DNA from: the human T2T-CHM13v2.0 reference genome, Homo sapiens
DNA: 64,000 nt
Assembly (NCBI RefSeq): GCF_009914755.1
Contig: NC_060947.1
Direction: 5' to 3' (one strand)
Positions 2,890 through 64,000 of this stretch are shown here, one piece after another. Below the pieces are notes generated by a model, which worked only from the letters and a program-made list of their open reading frames with translations, ran no database searches and was not told the DNA's origin. Position 1 is the first letter of the stretch. Every line of letters starts with the position of its first letter. The position numbers and the translations under genes are program-made.

Positions 2890-3810
2890 GTATAAAGTTC
2901 TCAATTCTTTTCCATTTACACTCACTTCTCTATAGCTTCAAATATTATCTGTCTTCTTACCAAACCTATTTTCCCAACTCCTCTCCCCTGAGTTCTAGGA
3001 CTCTTGGACCCAGTAACCTCCTCACCCTGATGAGCTGGCAATTGAGATCTCAAACCTGGATTCTTTTTTTTTTTTTTTGGAGTAAGTCTCACTCTGCTGC
3101 TCAGGCTGGAGTGCAGTGGTGCAATCTTGGCTCATTGGCTCACTGCAACATCTGCCTCTTGGGTTCAAGTGATTCTCCTGCCTCAGCCTCCCGAGTAGCT
3201 GGAATTACAGGTGTGTGCCACCACACCCAGCTAATTTTTGTATTTTTAGTAGAGATGGGGTTTCACCATATTGGCCAGGCTGGTCTCAAACTCCTGGCCT
3301 CAAATGATCTTCCCACCTTGGCCTCCCAAAGTGCTGGGATTACAGGTGTGAGCCACTGTGCCCCGTCCAAAGCAGGATTCTTGATTCTCCCTACCTCTCC
3401 AAGAATTCCCCCATTCCACCAGTTTCTCCTGCTATATTCTACATGTCAGTACGTAGTACTGAGCACCAACAATCTAAGAGCCATCTTGGATGCTGATCTG
3501 TTTTGTCCACATATTTTCTAGTCCATCAACTTGTTCTGGTGGCTTGTAGCTCTCTCTCCAAACATTTCTCCAATGCCTCCTTTCTTCTCCATTCCTACTG
3601 CTAAAATCCCACTCTATGCCATTATCCCCTCTTTCCTGGACTAATACCATGAATTGAGCAAGTCTCTTGGAATACCTTCTTGTCTCCTTTCTCCCTGCAA
3701 GCAGCAGCCAAGGGACCGTCTCAAAGCAGCAATCAGATCACATCACAAGCCCCCTCCCTCATCTCATTGTTTCACACATTTAAAGCCCTACAGCAGTTCC
3801 CTGTTGAAAC
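2890..3810 (+). mobile_element. L2 fragment interrupted by an Alu
   Basis: ctctcccctgag..gagatctcaaac..tccattcctactgcta..tctttcctggacta..cagcagcca..tcagatcacatcac, the L2 3' region. Confidence 0.65.
3062..3367 (-). mobile_element. Alu (AluS-like), full length
   Basis: polyT followed by gtctcactctg..gctggagtgcagtgg..ctcccaaagtgctgggattacaggtgtgagcc. Confidence 0.95.
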
Positions 3811-11859: not shown

Positions 11860-12950
11860 TTGCCTAGAACTTTACCCATTTCCCTTGTCTCCTCACCAGC
11901 ACCCTGGTGGCTTCCTCCTACCTCACAATTCCTTTTCATGCTCCTTTGGTGGGTCTTTTGCCTCTGCCTGCACCTCTAAATGTTGAGCGCCTCAGGGGTC
12001 TATCCTGGGTCTCGTATCTTTTGTCCACACTCTAACTGGGCAAACTCATCATGTCCAATATCTTTAAAATATTCACGCCCAGGATTCTAGATTCCTGTAT
12101 CCAACAGCCAACTAGATATCACTATGTGGAAGCTTAATAAGCATCTCGAACTCAACATGACCCAAGAGTATTCTCTCTTTTGCCAATCAGGTTTTTTCCA
12201 GTCTCATGTATCTCATATAGCTCCCCTAGAAATACACATATCTCAGTAAATGGTTTTACCACCCACTTAGTGCTCAAGTAATTGTTCTTGATTACTGTCT
12301 TATAGCTTCCCTCACCTTCCACACCCAATACTTCTGGAACAGCAAGTCCCGTGAATTCTATTTTCAAAGCACCTCTCAAACCTTTCAATTTTTCCCCATC
12401 TCCACTGGTATCACCACCCTTTGTCAACTGGGGCTTGTACAAAAGCCTCCTAACTAGTTTTCTCTGCTTCCACATGAATTGTTTTGTAAAAATATAAATC
12501 ACATTAGTTCTGGGCTCAAATCTCTCTAATAACTTTTCATTGCACTTAGATTAAAAATCCATCCTTCTTAATCTAGTTTATAATGTCCTTCATGAGCTAA
12601 CTTCTGCTGACCTCTGAGACCTCATCTGTCCATTCACCCATTGGCCCACTATCCTCAGCTACACTGGACATTTTTCTATCCTGACGCTTACCTAGCTTAT
12701 TCTTAACTAAGGACCTTGACTCTAACTTAACTCTGTGCCTGGAATGTCCCTCCTCCTCCACATTCTTGTGGATAGCTCCTTCTTGTCATTTACATATCAG
12801 CTCAAATGTCATCTTTCCAAAGAGGCTTTCCCTGACCATCCCATCTAAGTAAGGCCTATTTTTCTTATGTATTGATTTGTGTGTTTCTTCATTAGAGTAG
12901 TTCCATGAGAGCAGGAAGCAGATCTATCTTACTGAGGACACTCCTGGTGC
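11860..12950 (+). mobile_element. L2 fragment
   Basis: ctcctacctcac..ctctaaatgttgagcgcctcagggg..agcatctcgaactcaacatg..ctcaaatgtcatc..gaggctttccctgacc. Confidence 0.8.
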
Positions 12951-37729: not shown

Positions 37730-38140
37730 GAGATCAACAAACAGATAATAATAGATAAGAGATTTTAAGCAGGGCAAGGAGTGACCTCATTAGGTTTAGG
37801 TTCAGGGTAAATAATTCTAGGCATAGCATGGAGGATGGCCTAGAATAGACAGAATATTCTGAAAGTACAGACGCTGGTTTGGAGGCTGTTGTTTAAGTGT
37901 TTAAGTAGAGGAGGTGCCTGATTTGGGAGATGTTTCTGAGACAGAATCAGGACTTGTTGCTTACTTGGGTGTGGGGAAAAGGAGAAGTTAAAAATACCTG
38001 ATATTTTTATCTGGGGACTCTGGGCAGATGATGATACCACTAGCTGAGAGAGGACATTTAGAAAAAGAGCAAGGTGGGATGAAGCTAAAAAGGTTGGTCC
38101 TTAACATATTGTCATAAAAGTGCCCGTGAAGTAGACAGGG
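37260..38140 (-). mobile_element. L2 fragment with (TA)n at 37686-37724
   Basis: aacatttcttaaatacc..gattttaagcagggc..gacagaatcaggacttg..ggttggtccttaacatattg. Confidence 0.7.
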
Positions 38141-56185: not shown

Positions 56186-57396
56186 CATATATCATATATA
56201 AAAATAACAGTTACATAGTATTGCAATTATATCCAGACATAATAGGCAAGACATGAGACATAAAATATAGAATTAATTTTGGAAGTCATCTAAATCATGC
56301 TCTGAGGGAAGGTACAAGGCTACTAAAGGCAAAGAGCCTTGCTAAGTCAGGGTGTGGCATAACTGAAAGCCCAAATGCCAGACTTTGTCCTCTGCTTAGC
56401 CTAAACCAGAGGTCAGATGTCTCTTGTCGCCAGATGTTGATAAACACAGAGAGGTAAGCTCTTCAGTTACCCTATCACCACCTTACTAATACATATGACT
56501 GCAAAACGTTGCCTTCATGTAAGTCAGAATATGAAGGAAAAGCCCCTAATGAATATGATTTCATGAACTTTGGACATAAAAACTCACTTGGTAGTACATT
56601 ATAATTTTAAATCACATTTAATTCCCTGCCAGCCAGGAAATAATTCCATGGGAAGTCAATCAATGAAAGTTAACAAAATCATTACTAGAAAAAAAGGTAA
56701 TATTTTTCATTTTCAAAAAGTAAAGGGTTGGGTTGAATGAGAAGTAGATATAGGAGACAGAGCAGCATTCTCAGGTGTTGTTCATGCCCCTGCCATTGTT
56801 TTAATTATGGCCTCAATATTCTTTCTCATGGCTGATGGTTGACTTTGGTGAGTAGAAGTAGGTAGTAGCTAAGAATAATCATGAAAAAATAGAACATTTT
56901 CTTTAAAAAGGAAAAATTGCCTAATGATATATCAGTTTTGTATCTACAATCACCATAGAACATTTAGGTTATTTGTACTCTATTATCAGGAAAGATTGGG
57001 GAAAAGTGGAGTGGCAAAGAGAAATAAAGAAGTATTAATTGGAAACCACCTCAAACATGAGAAAAATAGCCTTTATTTATTTCATTCTGCATCTGCTAGT
57101 CTCTGGGCAATCTAAAAAAACAGTCTTCAGAATTATAGCCACATGGTGATTTTTTTCCTCTCCAGAATTACAAGAAAATTGGCTCCCACACTGTGGAACT
57201 AAAAAGAGGGGCTATAGGGTGCTGCTTCTCTCTCTTGACATTTTACTTGGTTTTCAAAGGAATTCGTGACTAAGAATCTCATGGAATCTAAATGCGGTCA
57301 CTGATGGAAATTTAGGTTTCCACAAAGAGTGCAGGAAGAAATTTACATGGCAAAAAAAAAGAAAAGATTTGCTCTGGCAAATGGGTGAGGTAAGGA

Positions 57397-57423
57397 TGTG
57401 TGTGTGTGTGTGTGTGTGTGTGT
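57397..57423. repeat. (TG)n microsatellite
   Basis: Seen directly. Confidence 0.95.
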
Positions 57424-57899
57424 GGTGTATATATGTACACGTCACATACATATATCAGTGAGTATGTATATCTCAATGATTTTCATTTGCTAGGTCTAGT
57501 AATACATCTAATTTTTAAAATAACGAGTTTTTTTCCAGCAGTTGTATAAAAATAATTACTTAATTATTGTTTTTCTTTTTCAGCAAGTTTATGAACTTTG
57601 GACATATTGAGATTATGTAAGTCCTTGGACAGCATTAATATAATATTATCTAATTTGTAATAAAAGTGTATACCCATTTTATTCATTAAGTATAAATATT
57701 TGGAAAGACGATAGATTTTAAGCCAGGTATGGAGTGAACTGACACATTCATCCACAAAAGTCAGATCAAGTTAATGAAAAAAGAGAAGATTGAGGTGTTA
57801 CTATTCAGTAGTACTTCTTTTTATTTATTACTTTATTCATCAGCACATCCAGGAGAGCTTAATAACTCGCTCTCCTAGAATAAAAATCCTAGTTGGTAC

Positions 57900-60800
57900 T
57901 CCCACCATGGCCAATTTTAAGGACAAGGAACACTAAGTTACAAGGAAATGACAATAATCAGTTCTCATTAGATGGTAAGGACAGGTGTGAACACTGTGTT
58001 ACAGCTAACCAGGAGAAAAAGGAATGTTACGGAACTTAAACTGCTTAGAATGTTGATATAATAAAGGGGGATAGGGAAACAGCAAGCACTGAGGCTGGTG
58101 AGCCAGGCAGAAGTCAGAGTGGGAGGAGCCTTGAGGTCTCTCCAGGAGATTCAGGGACCATAGGATTTGGTAGTGATTCAGGTATGGGATGATCATGGCC
58201 CTCATCATTGTAGTGACCACAGTATTTTGCAGGAATCCAAAAAACAGATGATAGACATGTCCGTAACCATGATAGTGCCCATGGGATTTTGTAGCTATAG
58301 AGTGAAAAGATGACAGTGGCCATATCCAGGGTAATGTCTACGGGAATTTGTGAATATCCAGGTAAGAAATGAGTGTTTCTACTTAGGAATTGAACATGGG
58401 ATACTGAAGTTATAAAGGTAGGAAATGATGATAAACCTAACAGTGGGGGTGAGCATGGTGTTTTCTAGATATCCAGATAAGAGAGGATGATGGCCCTAAC
58501 TCGAGTACCAAAATTGGATTTCCTCAGGTAAGCACATAGGAGCTGAAGATGTTTCTTACCATGTTAGTGAACATGGCATTTTGTGCTATTCCAGACATGA
58601 TGGCGAACCTAACCACAAAATGACCATGAGATTGTCAGGGGTCTAGTAAAGACATGATGGTGCCCTTAACTGTGAAGGTTATGACGAAATTTGTAGGTCA
58701 GTAATTAAGAGATGATGCTGATAATAACCACAGTAAGGAGCAGGGGATTTTGCAAGTAACCAGGTAAGAGATGATGGTATCTCTAAAAATATGGTGACCA
58801 TGGAATTTTGAGGATATCCAATCAAGGAATAATGTGTTACTAGTAATGGTAGTACCAAGGGATTTTACAGTTACCCTGGAAAGAAATGATGTGTCCCTAG
58901 CAATGGCATTTAATCTGGGTAATTTGTAGGTCTTCATGTATGGTAGGCTTCTCTAAATCTGGTAGATCTCACGGGCTTCTGTAGGCATCCACATGAGAGA
59001 TGACGTGACACAAATTGCAACCAATTGCCACCATTGTAACCTAGGTGTTTTATAAGTATCCAGCTTAAAGCTGTAGCTTTATTTATTCCTTGGATGTAAG
59101 ACTTTCATGTTATCTATTGTTTTCTTTCTTTTTGAAACAGAGTCTGGCTGAGGTAAGTGCTGATGTGGGCCTAAACCACAGCCTGCACCGTGGGACTGTC
59201 ACAGAGACACAGTTGAGTGATGATGTGTCCCTACAGGCCTTACCACCATTATTTCCTTCATACTTATTCAGGTGAGAAATGATTGAGTCTTGTCTTGGTA
59301 AGTGATGATGGTGATGATGGTGTAGGCCTCCCTGTTGTTCCCGATTTCGCTTCAGGTGTCCCTGACATATTCGAAACCGTGAGTTTTCCCTCTGCATATT
59401 TCAGAGACAATGCCTAACCCCGTGTTCACAGTGGAACTTTGAATACTTGGTAATTATCCGGTGTTCCTTCCCACAGCAGTGACCATGGACATTTTGCAGG
59501 TGTCCTGTAGAGAGAAATGCTGTCTTCTGGGACCACCGCCCTGAGCTTGGGGGCCCCCACTAGCATTCAGGTAAGAGTCCTTCAGTGATGGATGTGAGCA
59601 TCGTGATTTGCAGGTGTCCTGGTAGAACACCTTGTGTGTTTCTGAGGCATATATCTCAGTATATGTTTTCCAGGTTCCCGGGAGAAAATCCTGAAGAACG
59701 GGGGTCATGAGCAGGGGACGTGTCTGCTATCTGGGTAAGTGATTGTGTGCACCATAAACTTACCACGGACAACCTGATCTTCACGTTTGTAGGTCAGTGA
59801 GGTTCCTTTCCCTGAACAGTTTACCATGTGATGCGTTTATGGGTATTCCGGTAAGAAAGGGTAGTGGCTCCTCGTTCTCCTTGCCATGTAATCCTATTGT
59901 TTTCTGTCTTGGAGAGAACGTATGAGGTAAGTACCCTGTGAGTGCTGATGGATTGGCACGTAACCAGGGAACTCCAGTGGCACTGTGCATCACAGGAGTA
60001 ACTAAGGTGGATGTGCAGAGAAGACGGCCAGAGAAAATGAAGTGTCCTATGATGTCCTACCCCTTGGAGCAACCACAAGCATCCAGGTAGATTTTTGGCT
60101 CCCACAATGATGTTAGTGAGCAGGTGGTTTTCTGGGTCCTGGTGGAAAAGCTGTGTCTGTAGGCAGATTGTAACACATGTGGTTTCACATTCCCTTCCAG
60201 AAGTCAAGGGAACCCTCATTATGCTCGAGCAGGGGCACTCTGCCCATATCCAGAGAGGAGACAGTATGGGCGTAAGCAGGCCATGGACGATCCAGTCTTC
60301 CGATACACAGGTAATCACCGATGTCATTCCTGCTATTTTTCCTGTCCTGCCATGGGTTTTCTCAGCTCATTTTCTGTTTTTTATTTTCTGCAGTTATTCA
60401 GTTAAGAAACAATGCTCTGCCAACCAAGGCTAGTAAGCATTAGTCCTTGCTGTGTTCGACTTTAGGATAATGTGCATTGAACCTGAGTCCGTGTTGACTG
60501 TGGTAGATGCGGGTGTCCAGGTGAATTATCCTACTCTACCAGACCACAGGATGGAATGATAGTTCTGACACATCCTCAGTCCAGAGCCGATAGTGGCGCC
60601 AACAGTGGGGTGGACGTTGGAGTTCTGCCAGGATCTAGGTAAGGTTGATGGTTCCCGGATGATGGCAGTGACCAGCCTGTGCGGTGCGTGTCTTTTTCGT
60701 CTTTCAGGTATGCCAAGTGGCATCCCGGAAAACACCTGTCAGATGCGTTTCTTCTGCTGCTGCTAGTCATGAGATCAAGGTGGGTCTGAGAATGGCCATT

Positions 60801-63800
60801 CAGAGGCCCTGGATAGTAACCAGGTAATGGATGACACCAGTCCTATGCCAATACAGACCACTTGAACTTCAGATTTCCTGGACAAAGAGGGCACTGTCCT
60901 TGACACAGTGTTTTTCCCATGGTTTCCTGCAGGAGTCCCGTAAAGTTCTCTTCCTGTAGAGAGGTAGGAGATGTTGTGGCATTACCTCATGAAAGACATT
61001 CTGAATTTCCTGCATGTAGATAGTTAATGATGGTTTAAGTCTGGTAGAGTAACCTTGTGTTTGGCATATGTGTCATTGAGAAAAAATAATTAGTGATTCC
61101 CAATGCCAGTAAGCATGAGATTTTACTGTTTGCTTATTCAGAGGTAAGGGCTTTTATTTTTTTTTTTCGGTAAATCTGACCCTCCACGTGAGAAACAGAT
61201 ATGCCAGTGCCCAGGTAGTTGATCATATTGTCTGTCACCCCGATGTGGACTGTGCTGTTTCTCCAGGTATCCCTCGGAGGCTCTGGCTTAGATATTTTCA
61301 GTTATCTGGGTAACCTGGATGAGTTGCGAAACGATACCAATGAACAAGAGTATTTGTGGGTGTCCTCGTAGCATAGGTTGTGTACCAAGCAGAGTTTCCC
61401 CAATATGTCTTTCAGATGAATGTCAGGGCATCACAGCAGGCCTTTTGAAGCTAGGTAACGTGGGGCATTGCTGGCTGAGGTAAGTGCTGACACAGGCCTA
61501 AACCACAGCCCGCAGCATCGTACTGTCACAGAGGCTTATTTCAATGATGATGTGCCCCTACACATCTTCCCGCCATGATTTCTTTTCCATGTATTCAGAT
61601 GAGAAATGATTCCGTTTTCACCACTCCCAGATAGGCCGGGTTTTCCCATTTTATAAAAGTATATGCTGAACCCTGTGAGTGTTGAGGGATTGCAGGGAGC
61701 CAGGTATTTATCGCTGTGTTCCCCACTTCTGTGCTGCCGCTCCGATTTCTAGAGATGTGCAGTTGAGAAACAGTAGTTTTCTGCTGTCAGGGTCGACCTG
61801 AGATTACTGCAACTATACACATCGAGTGGGTGTGTCCCATAAAGATGGAAATAAACATGGGACTTTGTGGGAGTCTTTGCAGAAAACCCCCTGTCTTTTT
61901 ACACATATGTATTGGTGCCTCTTTCAGATTCCTGCTATGACATCACAGTGAATCCAACATGGGTCCCTATCAGGAAGCAGGGCTGCTCTGCAGGTCAAGG
62001 CTGCATGAGGACCCAAAGCAACACATGGGCCACTTGAAGTTCAGGTGTATAGGTAAGTGAGGATGGTGTCCATACTTCCTGTTGTTCCCATGATTTCACC
62101 TCAGGTGTCCTGGTCAGAAATGACAAATGTCCCTGGCACACTAGAAACCGTGAGATTTCCCTCTGCATATTTCAGAGACAATGTCTAACCCAGTGAGCAC
62201 AGTGGGACTGCAAATACCAGGTAATGATCTTGGGGTTCCCAGCCACAGCGATTACGCTGGACATTTTGCAGGTGTCTTGTAGAGAGAAATGCTGTTTTCT
62301 GGGCCTGCAGCCCTGAGCTTAGGGGGTCCCACCAGCATCCAAGTAAGAGTCCTTCAACGATGGATGCGAGCATTGTGATTTGCATGTGTCCTGTTAGAAC
62401 ACTTTGTGTGTTTCTGAGGCATATATCTCAGTGTAGGTTTTCCAGGGTCCCACAAGGAAATCCCGATAAACAGGAGTCAGGATCAGGGAACACGTCTGCT
62501 ATCTGGGTAAGTGATGGTGTTCATGGTAAACTCACCACACACCAGGCGATCTCCACATACCTAGGTAAGCAAGGTTCCTTTGCCTGAAGGGTTTATCATG
62601 TGATGGGTTAACAGGTATTTTGGTAAGAAAGGGTAGCGGCTCTCCGTTCTCCTCGCCATGTGATCCTATTGATTTCTACCCTGGAAAGAATGTATGATGT
62701 ATGTGGTCTGTGAGGGCTGATTGATTGTCACATACCCAGGGAACTCATGTGGCATTGTGCATCACAGGAGTAACTGTGGTGGATTTGCAGGGAAACTGGC
62801 CAGGGAAAAATAGTGTGTCCTACAATGGCCTAGACCCTGGAGGGCCTGCAAGCATCCAAATACATTTTTGACTCCCACAGTGATTATACTGAGCAAGGCG
62901 GTTTGCAGGATCCTGATGGAAAAGCTGTGTCTGTTGAGCCATTGATCACACTTGCAGTTTCAGGTTCAGGCAGGCAGAAGTCAGAGCATGAGGACAACAT
63001 TGAGGTCTCTCCAGGCGATTTATGGACTCTCGGATTTGGTAGTGATTCAGGTACGAGATGATCATGGCTCTCATCATTGTAGTGACCATGGTATTTTGAA
63101 GGAATGCAAAAACAGATGATGGGCCCGTCCCTGACCATGGTAGTGCCCATGGGATTTTTTAGCTATAGAATGAAAAGATGACAATGACCATCTCCATGGT
63201 AATGTCTGAAATTTTTAAAATATCCAGGTAACAAATGAATGTTTCTGCTTAGGAAGTGAACATAGAATACTGAAGTTACAGAGTTAAGAAATGATGATAA
63301 ACTTCACCATGGGGGTGACCATGATATTTTCTAGATATCGAGATAAGTGAGGATGGTGACCCTAACTTGACTACCAAAATTGAGTTTGCTCAGGTAGGCA
63401 TGAAGGAGCTGATGATGCCGCTTCCCATGTTAGTGAATATGACATTTTGTGGTATTCCAGATATGATGGCGAACCTAATCACAAAATAACCATGAGATCA
63501 TGAGATTGTCAGGGGTCTAGTAAAAAGATGGTGGTCCCCTTAACCATGAAAGTTATGATGAAATTTTGTAAGCCAGTAATTAAGAGATCACAGAGATCCT
63601 AACCGTGATACTGAACAAGGAATTTTGCAAATCACCAGGTAAGAGATGATTGTGTCTCTAAAAATGTGGTGACCGTGGGATTTTGCAGATATCCAATTAA
63701 GGAATAATGTGTTCCTAGAAATTGTAGTACCAAGGTATTCAGCAGTTACCCAGGAAAGAAATGGTATGTCCCTAGCAATGGCATTTAATCTGGGTAATTT

Positions 63801-64000
63801 GTAGGTCTCCATGTATGGTAGGTTTTTCTAAATCTGATAGATCTCATGGGCTTCTGTAGGCATCCGCATGAGAGATGATATGTCATAAATTGTAAGTAAC
63901 TGCCACTACCGTAACCAAAGTATTTTATAAGTGTCCAGCTAAGAGCTCTGGCTTTATGTATTTGTTGGATTTATGACCATTTTTTTCTGTGTTTTCATAG
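57900..64000 (+). repeat. Degenerate ~58-bp tandem array with kb-scale internal duplications; runs off the window
   Basis: The CCATGGGATTTT-like motif recurs at about 58158, 58217, 58279, 58338, 58394, 58453, 58511, 58571, 58624, 58682, 58740, 58798, 58855, 58914 and 58969; block 58104-59100 is repeated at 62972-63990. Confidence 0.9.

What the first reader, a model, noticed from the sequence alone, without database searches (positions are those of the whole stretch)
57900..64000. A 'splice-signal satellite': each ~58-bp monomer carries a branch point, a 3' splice site and a 5' splice site on the + strand
Seen: the hand-built consensus read circularly is ..GTC-CCTAAC-CACGGTAGTGACCATGGGA-TTTTGCAG|GTATCCAG|GTAAGAG-ATGATGGT.. 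This gives a CTAAC branch-point-like motif about 28 nt upstream of TTTTGCAG, an 8-nt spacer, then CAG|GTAAGA. My manual count is about 18 GGTAAG hexamers on + in about 6.1 kb (e.g. 58361, 58527, 58763, 59152, 59570, 59926, 61479, 62052, 63638), versus about 3 on the opposite strand and about 1.5 expected at uniform base composition. Many CAGGTRR variants add to this. YCTAAC-like motifs recur at about 58436, 58494, 58607, 59413, 62185, 63360 and 63598. Established: GTAAG donors pair with the U1 5' end, YTNAY branch points recruit SF1/U2, U1 sites suppress premature polyadenylation and promote chromatin retention of lncRNAs, and ~50-nt introns are shorter than typical human introns. Inference: a + strand RNA through this array could be a multivalent U1/U2 landing pad (scaffold, decoy or nuclear-retained lncRNA) or a substrate for recursive or combinatorial micro-exon splicing. 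I do not recognise it as a named satellite.
Basis: partly seen in the sequence, partly recalled or inferred. Interest (0 to 1): 0.88.

Follow-up and report, generated by a model that had tools for sequence, protein, structure and literature searches.

The report
Transposon-derived 59-bp repeat feeding a testis lncRNA
An old, decayed tandem repeat on human Xp22.2, apparently copied from a 59-base piece of an ancient dispersed repeat, carries many splice-donor-like motifs on one strand that a testis non-coding RNA uses for its exons; this looks like inheritance plus decay, not a purpose-built device.

Summary
GGTAAG occurs 18 times on + and 3 times on -, against 1.6 in shuffles, and a profile consensus of exactly 59 nt matches the hand-built one. 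"Satellite 57900-64000" is overstated. TRF finds no array, and recognisable monomers cover 26% of the interval, in two blocks (58150-59030 and 62951-64000). The + strand-only domain runs on to about window 86000.

Only 20 of 85 monomer junctions keep both the acceptor AG and the donor GT. The donor GT columns are the least conserved of the junction core. So the predicted extra conservation of splice columns fails at monomer level. Between later segmental paralogs GGTAAG is kept about twice as often as matched hexamers (16 of 41 against 83 of 417).

The monomer core is collinear with a segment of an abundant ancient dispersed repeat (162 genomic matches, control 0). The TTGCAG and CAGGTRAG motifs are therefore inherited.

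The annotated lncRNA GS1-600G8.3 takes 8 of 13 donors and 3-5 of 12 acceptors from monomer positions. It does not use 8-nt exons or ~50-nt introns.

Verdict: a transposon-derived tandem repeat turned into lncRNA exons. U1-site density is real (4.3 per kb against 0.6-0.8), but a landing-pad function is untested.

The parts
58150..59030 (+). Array block A: about 15 recognisable 59-bp monomers, head to tail.
   Evidence: Lag-59 autocorrelation of 0.356 against a mean of 0.264. 79% is covered by significant + strand monomer hits. The monomers are listed.
62951..64000 (+). Array block A', a segmental paralog of block A that continues beyond the window end.
   Evidence: blastn aligns 58101-59289 with 62968-64167 at 82% identity. 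Lag-59 peak of 0.345. 61% is covered by monomer hits.
59031..62950 (+). Degenerate middle part. Few recognisable monomers remain, but it holds 13 of the 18 GGTAAG and runs of donor-like sites about 58 nt apart (59734/59792/59850 and 62506/62564/62622). It is built from segmental paralogs.
   Evidence: 6% monomer coverage. Paralog pairs: 59357-60187 with 62128-62962 (81%), 59359-61784 with 75891-78308 (85%), 61430-62967 with 75211-76721 (80%). Donor-like sites are listed.
58091..63050 (+). Exons 1-13 of lncRNA GS1-600G8.3 (NR_046087.1), which take splice sites from the monomers.
   Evidence: Exon coordinates come from the annotation supplied with the finding. The spliced 1258 nt has no open frame longer than 91 codons.
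58741..58781 (+). Best-preserved monomer junction (3' splice-site-like TTTTGCAA, 8-nt spacer, CAG|GTAAGAG). It is the only array copy within 3 mismatches of the 30-nt consensus core.
   Evidence: Core alignment. Whole-genome pattern search.
58338..58372 (+). A monomer whose donor is the annotated donor of exon 2 (58361|58362); its own acceptor column is lost.
   Evidence: row 58340-58372. (30 of 41 match, null fraction 0.0000).
58279..58320 (+). A monomer whose acceptor is the annotated acceptor of exon 2 (58294|58295); its own donor 8 nt downstream is lost.
   Evidence: row 58279-58320. (31 of 41 match).

Best explanation
This is a single-locus, old and heavily decayed tandem array of a 59-bp unit. 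It spans about 28 kb, from window 58.2 kb to about 86 kb, in one orientation.

The unit is a copy of a roughly 55-59-nt internal segment of an abundant ancient dispersed repeat. I recall that repeat as the LINE-2 3' region, but the name is untested. The segment already contained a TTGCA(R) word and CCAGG-CG-AGAGATGATGG. CpG decay turns the latter into CAG|GTGAG or CAG|GTAAG, so amplification multiplied a strong 5' splice-site look-alike and a weak 3' splice-site look-alike on one strand.

The array then decayed and was re-duplicated in kb-sized segments that are now 70-85% identical. Transcription of the + strand, reported as mainly in testis, exposes these sites. The spliceosome uses those combinations that make workable exons. 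In the one case examined (exon 2), a monomer that kept its acceptor but lost its donor is followed by a monomer that kept its donor. The result is the many-exon lncRNA GS1-600G8.3.

Shown: the array, its strand, its extent, the similarity to the dispersed repeat, and the use of monomer sites by annotated exons. Inferred: the direction and order of events, and that no selection for a 'landing pad' is needed.
For: Array and uniqueness. 81 of 82 profile hits are on +, all within 58180 to about 86000 of the 124 kb examined. Whole-genome searches with 601 nt and 6.6 kb of the array hit only this locus.

Origin. The 30-nt consensus core at <=3 mismatches hits the array once, plus chr3 and chr11, with 0 hits for the reversed control. 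Around the chr11 site lies a dispersed repeat with 21 matches on many chromosomes. The core profile hits 9 of 9 such copies, including the chr3 and chr11 ones, at E 1.6e-8 to 3.2e-5. A pattern of the dispersed-repeat type has 162 genomic matches on both strands, control 0. The two free positions are mostly TG, CA or TA, and CG remains in 4 of the 100 listed. An HMM of 20 dispersed copies aligns ungapped to the 59-nt monomer consensus over 47 nt (21.9 bits). None of 200 shuffled monomers reaches that score; their maximum is 0.2 bits.

No monomer-level constraint on the essential dinucleotides. GT is present in 36 of 87 cores. With monomers found by their body only, it is present in 18 of 61, while the flanking AAG stays at 0.7-0.8.

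Exon use. No coding potential and no Rfam family.

The kind is known: at least 23% of human minisatellites and satellites are reported as TE-derived (PMC3389668, abstract read).
Against: Between segmental paralogs GGTAAG is kept in both copies in 16 of 41 site pairs. Composition-matched hexamers are kept in 83 of 417 (Fisher p=0.009). The pairs are not independent: about 9 families retain the motif in two or more copies. This still hints at some constraint on donors.

The + strand is poor in A[AT]TAAA (0.54 per kb against 1.4-1.9 per kb in the flanks) and rich in U1 sites. That combination would also suit a selected long nuclear RNA.

Similarity to the dispersed repeat is strong only for about 30 nt. 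In the remaining 25 aligned positions I count about 13 identities. Single monomers hit the 20-copy HMM weakly; the best E is 0.0023. No full copy of the source repeat was found at an edge of the array.

The family name could not be checked because no Dfam or RepeatMasker library is on hand. No other species could be examined.
Confidence: 0.7

Rival explanations
1. Functional multivalent U1 (and U2) platform. The unspliced or partly spliced + strand RNA binds many U1 snRNPs through unused strong 5' splice sites. This would keep it on chromatin, protect it from premature polyadenylation, or titrate snRNPs in germ cells.
For: There are 119 sites with GT and >=7 of 9 U1-pairing positions on + in 27.9 kb (4.26 per kb, against 0.61 on - and 0.64-0.81 in the flanks). 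For >=8 of 9 the figures are 1.50 per kb against 0.02-0.11. GGTAAG is retained between paralogs above the matched baseline. A[AT]TAAA is scarce on +. A U1 recognition motif causes chromatin retention of a reporter RNA, and lncRNAs are enriched in such motifs (bioRxiv 10.1101/310433, passages read).
Against: The donor GT is the least conserved core column among monomers. The motif is inherited from a dispersed repeat, so the density needs no selection. PAS scarcity follows from a repeat unit that lacks the hexamer. There are no binding, localisation or cross-species data. The RefSeq transcript is spliced into ordinary exons.
Confidence: 0.12
2. The similarity to the dispersed repeat is coincidental or only partial. 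The monomer would then arise from amplification of a small exon with its flanking splice sites from an older, now decayed gene, so the splice signals were functional from the start.
For: The unit carries branch-point-like, 3' splice-site-like and 5' splice-site-like words in the right order and spacing. 6 of 12 annotated acceptors are followed by GT, as in the monomer junction.
Against: A 22 of 22 identical stretch, extended to a 47-nt ungapped alignment to a profile of 20 dispersed copies, was reached by 0 of 200 shuffles. 9 of 9 dispersed copies are hit by the array core profile. There is no open reading frame in the spliced RNA or in the DNA. An 8-nt exon and a ~50-nt intron are not workable units for the human spliceosome (established knowledge).
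Confidence: 0.06
3. Recursive or combinatorial splicing substrate. Juxtaposed AG|GT junctions in the monomers would act as ratchet points, so that the long primary transcript is removed stepwise.
For: The consensus has TTTTGCAG|GT. 6 of 12 annotated acceptors are AG|GT.
Against: The annotated introns are short, 103-1148 nt. Recursive splicing, as I recall it, is described for very long introns. The acceptor AG and donor GT are both present in only 20 of 85 monomers. No lariat or intermediate data are available.
Confidence: 0.05

Closest known systems
TE-derived minisatellites and satellites (Ahmed & Liang 2012, PMC3389668; abstract read)
   Same: The unit is similar to an internal piece of a dispersed transposable element. 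It was expanded by local duplication and sits at a single locus.
   Different: This array is very old and decayed (TRF-negative). It was secondarily duplicated in kb-sized segments. The copied piece happens to hold splice-site look-alikes, so the array became a source of exons. The source family name is unverified here.
Exonised transposable elements and TE-supplied splice sites in lncRNAs (Sela et al. 2007, PMC2394776, search listing only; Kapusta et al. 2013, recalled)
   Same: Splice sites of a non-coding transcript come from repeat sequence. CpG decay creates GT donors.
   Different: Here a tandemly amplified fragment supplies many donors of one transcript (8 of 13 in the window), rather than one insertion supplying one exon.
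U1-motif chromatin-retention elements in lncRNAs (bioRxiv 10.1101/310433; passages read)
   Same: High density of U1-pairing motifs in a non-coding RNA. That paper notes clustered U1 sites in Malat1 repeats.
   Different: No binding or localisation data exist for this RNA. The sites here are also used as real donors.
Recursive splice sites or ratchet points (recalled; Drosophila Ubx and long vertebrate introns)
   Same: Juxtaposed 3' and 5' splice-site consensus, AG|GT.
   Different: The introns are short, and there is no evidence of stepwise removal.
Repeat-built lncRNAs that bind one factor many times (PNCTR with PTBP1, NORAD with PUM, FIRRE RRD; recalled)
   Same: A tandem or dispersed repeat within one RNA multiplies a short protein- or RNP-binding word.
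   Different: In those cases binding was shown. Here it is only a sequence prediction.

Membership tests
Tandem repeat array (minisatellite or satellite type) | Head-to-tail copies of one unit with a constant period and one orientation | tested here: met
   Lag-59 peaks in the two blocks. Successive profile hits lie 55-60 nt apart in 58188-58990 and 63055-63865. 81 of 82 hits are on +. Donor-like sites lie about 58 and about 117 nt apart 13 times each, against 3.6 expected.
Tandem repeat array (minisatellite or satellite type) | Detectable by Tandem Repeats Finder (copies roughly 70% alike or more) | tested here: not met
   No row with period ~58 at minimum score 30. Mean column identity of 56 aligned monomers is 59%.
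TE-derived tandem repeat | The unit is significantly similar to a dispersed transposable-element family | tested here: met
   The 47-nt ungapped alignment scores 21.9 bits and is reached by 0 of 200 shuffles. There are 162 dispersed matches of the source-type pattern, control 0.
TE-derived tandem repeat | The array overlaps or abuts an annotated copy of the source element | tested here: inconclusive
   Profiles of the source repeat find no flanking parts of it at the array edges. At this age they may be undetectable. No RepeatMasker track is on hand.
LINE-2 (the name I recall for the source repeat) | Match to the curated L2 consensus in Dfam or Repbase | not testable with these tools
   No Dfam or Repbase library is available. 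The name is recalled from memory.
Recursive splice site | Juxtaposed AG|GT with a polypyrimidine tract | tested here: met
   The consensus is TTTTGCAG|GT. 6 of 12 annotated acceptors are followed by GT. The tract is only about 4 T long.
Recursive splice site | Lies within a very long intron and gives splicing intermediates | tested here: not met
   Annotated introns in the window are 103-1148 nt. Intermediates cannot be tested.
U1-dependent chromatin-retention element | Dense, accessible U1 recognition motifs | tested here: met
   4.26 per kb on + against 0.61-0.81 per kb in the controls. Accessibility was not tested.
U1-dependent chromatin-retention element | U1 snRNP binding and chromatin enrichment of the RNA | not testable with these tools
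   No CLIP, RAP or fractionation data are on hand.
Known structured RNA family (for example a snoRNA host repeat; the GATGATG word resembles a C box) | Rfam covariance-model match | tested here: not met
   cmscan of 57000-64000 at E<=1 gives only sub-threshold chance hits, none reaching a gathering score.

The most novel reading that the evidence does not exclude
The amplified transposon fragment has been co-opted. After the array formed, a subset of its strong 5' splice sites, including unused ones, has been kept by selection, which would explain why GGTAAG survives between paralogs at about twice the matched rate. Under this reading the testis RNA is a PAS-poor, U1-dense, chromatin-retained scaffold or snRNP sink, built from one 59-nt word.
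Probability: 0.1. Interest if true: 0.65.

Novelty: new member of a known kind. Interest (0 to 1): 0.3.

Why it matters
This is a clean example of how one short transposon fragment, once tandemly amplified, can seed a many-exon non-coding gene. The donors of GS1-600G8.3 are largely copies of one ancestral word. It also explains a striking strand-specific motif bias without invoking design. The locus is a natural test object with about 120 U1-pairing sites in 28 kb. It could be used to ask whether dense unused 5' splice sites affect RNA localisation or 3'-end formation in germ cells. I found no description of the array in print. Full-text searches for GS1-600G8.3 (4 papers) and LINC01203 (8 papers) gave titles and abstract starts that do not concern a repeat array. 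I read passages of only one of them (PMC13010821), and those do not describe the repeat.

Tried and rejected
TRF found no array.

Rfam gave nothing at or above a gathering score. The mir-297/466-like hits at 57392-57458 lie on a (TG)n run.

Six-frame ORFs and the spliced RNA show no long frame, so a coding-gene reading was dropped.

Iterating a rotated-phase profile to convergence collapsed it to a 25-column core. I used iteration 3 (88 cores) instead, and checked it with monomers detected by their body alone.

A first paralog test that counted both directions inflates n. It was replaced by site-pair counts with composition-matched controls.

A three-monomer higher-order repeat was considered, because of lag 174-177 peaks and a recurrent donor-less AGTCAAGAAAT variant. 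Donor spacing does not support a strict 3-unit period: 3 pairs near 175 against 3.6 expected.

A genome-wide search with a sequence-only covariance model was not accepted for this genome. Patterns were used instead.

A crude 3' splice-site measure showed no enrichment over the flanks.


Full report
Observation.

The counts are right. In 57900-64000 GGTAAG occurs 18 times on + and 3 times on -. Dinucleotide shuffles give 1.6+/-1.2, and 0 of 200 reach 18. Iterative nhmmer profiles reproduce the hand-built consensus. The merged consensus is exactly 59 nt.

The interval is not a clean satellite. TRF reports no ~58-bp array. A lag-59 autocorrelation peak is present only in 58100-59100 and 62950-64000. 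Significant monomer hits cover 26% of the interval: 79% and 61% of the two blocks, and 6% of the 3.9 kb between them. Other monomer words tested (GATGATG, CCATGG) are also enriched over shuffles.

Extent and structure.

The genome holding the window could be searched. I fetched 60 kb downstream. The monomer family fills window 58180 to about 86000. There are 82 significant hits, 81 of them on +, and none in 1-57899 or 86001-124000.

The domain is also built from kb-sized segmental paralogs, 70-85% identical. Examples are 58101-59289 with 62968-64167 and 59359-61784 with 75891-78308. Whole-genome searches with 601 nt and 6.6 kb of the array hit only this locus.

The ATXN3L retrogene (66086-67492, - strand) lies between monomer-bearing stretches (hits at 65182-65232 and 67466-67519). 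PMC13010821 dates that retrocopy to 61.6-71.1 Mya (passages read). I infer that the array is older than that.

Are the splice columns special?

In an alignment of 88 junction cores the two donor GT columns are the least conserved (0.5 and 0.6, where most other columns are 0.7-0.9). The column holds GT in 36 of 87, TC in 12, TT in 9 and AT in 7. The acceptor column is AG in 55 of 86. Both are present in 20 of 85.

To avoid detection bias I also found monomers with a profile of the body only and stacked their flanks. GT is present in 18 of 61, while the adjacent AAG stays at 0.7-0.8.

Between the later segmental paralogs the picture differs. GGTAAG is kept in both copies in 16 of 41 aligned site pairs, against 83 of 417 for composition-matched hexamers (Fisher p=0.009). 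ATGATG, CCATGG and TGACCA are at baseline. The pairs are not independent; about 9 families retain the motif in two or more copies. This is a hint, not proof.

Use by the annotated RNA.

With the supplied exon table, 8 of 13 donors (58181, 58361, 59297, 60310, 60520, 62052, 62506, 63050) match the 41-nt monomer junction in the donor phase better than 99.5% of GT sites upstream. Acceptors 58295, 58469 and 59500 do so as well. With a 20-nt test 59674 also passes, and 60708 is borderline. 7 of the 18 GGTAAG are annotated donors.

Exons are 12-413 nt. Five introns are 103-119 nt, about two monomers. No 8-nt exon and no ~50-nt intron is used. Around exon 2, the monomer that gives the acceptor has lost its own donor, and the monomer that gives the donor has lost its acceptor.

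The spliced 1258 nt has no open frame above 91 codons. Rfam gives nothing. PMC13010821 reports mainly testis expression from GTEx.

Density of U1-pairing sites.

Sites with GT and at least 7 of 9 matches to the U1-pairing 9-mer number 119 on + in the domain (4.26 per kb). The - strand has 0.61 per kb and the flanks 0.64-0.81 per kb. At 8 of 9 or better the figures are 1.50 against 0.02-0.11 per kb. The sites tend to lie about 58 and about 117 nt apart. A[AT]TAAA is scarce on + (0.54 per kb against 1.4-1.9 in the flanks). A crude 3' splice-site measure is not enriched.

Origin.

A whole-genome search for the 30-nt consensus core at 3 mismatches or fewer found one array copy and two other places, on chr3 and chr11. 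The reversed control found none. Around the chr11 site lies a dispersed repeat with 21 matches on many chromosomes, and the chr3 site aligns with it. The array core profile hits 9 of 9 such copies, including the chr3 and chr11 ones, at E 1.6e-8 to 3.2e-5.

A pattern written from those copies has 162 matches on both strands, spread over many chromosomes, with control 0. Its two free positions are mostly TG, CA or TA, and CG survives in 4 of the 100 listed. This is the signature of CpG decay of an ancestral CG.

An HMM of 20 such copies aligns without gaps to the 59-nt monomer consensus over 47 nt. The first 22 are identical, and I count about 13 of the remaining 25 as identical. The score is 21.9 bits, and none of 200 shuffled monomers exceeds 0.2 bits. 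Array hits to dispersed-repeat profiles together span about 59-66 profile positions.

The donor-like CAG|GTAAG and the TTGCAG word are therefore inherited from the source element. The CTAAC word is not in the source profile and arose in the array. I recall the source as the LINE-2 3' region. This could not be checked.

Reading.

The most economical account is a transposon-fragment-derived tandem array, a known kind (PMC3389668, abstract read). Its inherited splice-site look-alikes are used by a testis lncRNA.

A functional U1 platform is not excluded. The site density is real, and U1 motifs can retain RNAs on chromatin (bioRxiv 10.1101/310433, passages read). But nothing here requires that function, and the monomer-level test speaks against constraint on the essential dinucleotides.

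Limits.

No Dfam library, other eukaryote genomes, expression data or binding data were available. Only the window's share of the exon table was known. Supplements of the cited papers were not opened.

Noticed in passing
window 57397-57428: A (TG)16 microsatellite. Sub-threshold Rfam hits to mir-297, mir-466 and EBV sisRNA-1 lie on it and look like low-complexity artefacts.
   Followed up: partly
window 3519-3746 (-), 12310-12473 (-), 37920-37983 (+): Independent copies of the same ancient dispersed repeat that gave the monomer, found by the 20-copy HMM at E 3.2e-07, 8.2e-06 and 0.1.
   Followed up: no
beyond the window: 65360-65622 and 78652-78912 in window numbering (L003, L004): Insertions of about 260 bp inside the array domain. 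They match many places in 1-57000 on both strands at 74-85% identity. I take them to be Alu-like (name recalled). They were excluded from the paralog tests.
   Followed up: partly
L035 (G000:C12:61981677-61981946): One dispersed copy of the source repeat carries its own short tandem duplication of the GTGAGAGATGATGGTG stretch. This is the same segment that was amplified on Xp22.2.
   Followed up: no
L028, L029, L030 (chr1 at 147.88, 146.64 and 87.34 Mb): Three nearly identical copies of the dispersed repeat with the same flanks, which suggests a segmental duplication on chr1.
   Followed up: no
window 58091-58181 and 62964-63050: Exon 13 of NR_046087.1 is a paralog of exon 1, including the sequence around the annotated start. 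The transcript therefore reads through a duplicate of its own 5' end.
   Followed up: partly
window 59110-59400 (-): A 96-codon open frame on the minus strand with a run of seven His. It is a by-product of the GATGATGGTGATGATGG repeat and shows no other sign of coding.
   Followed up: no
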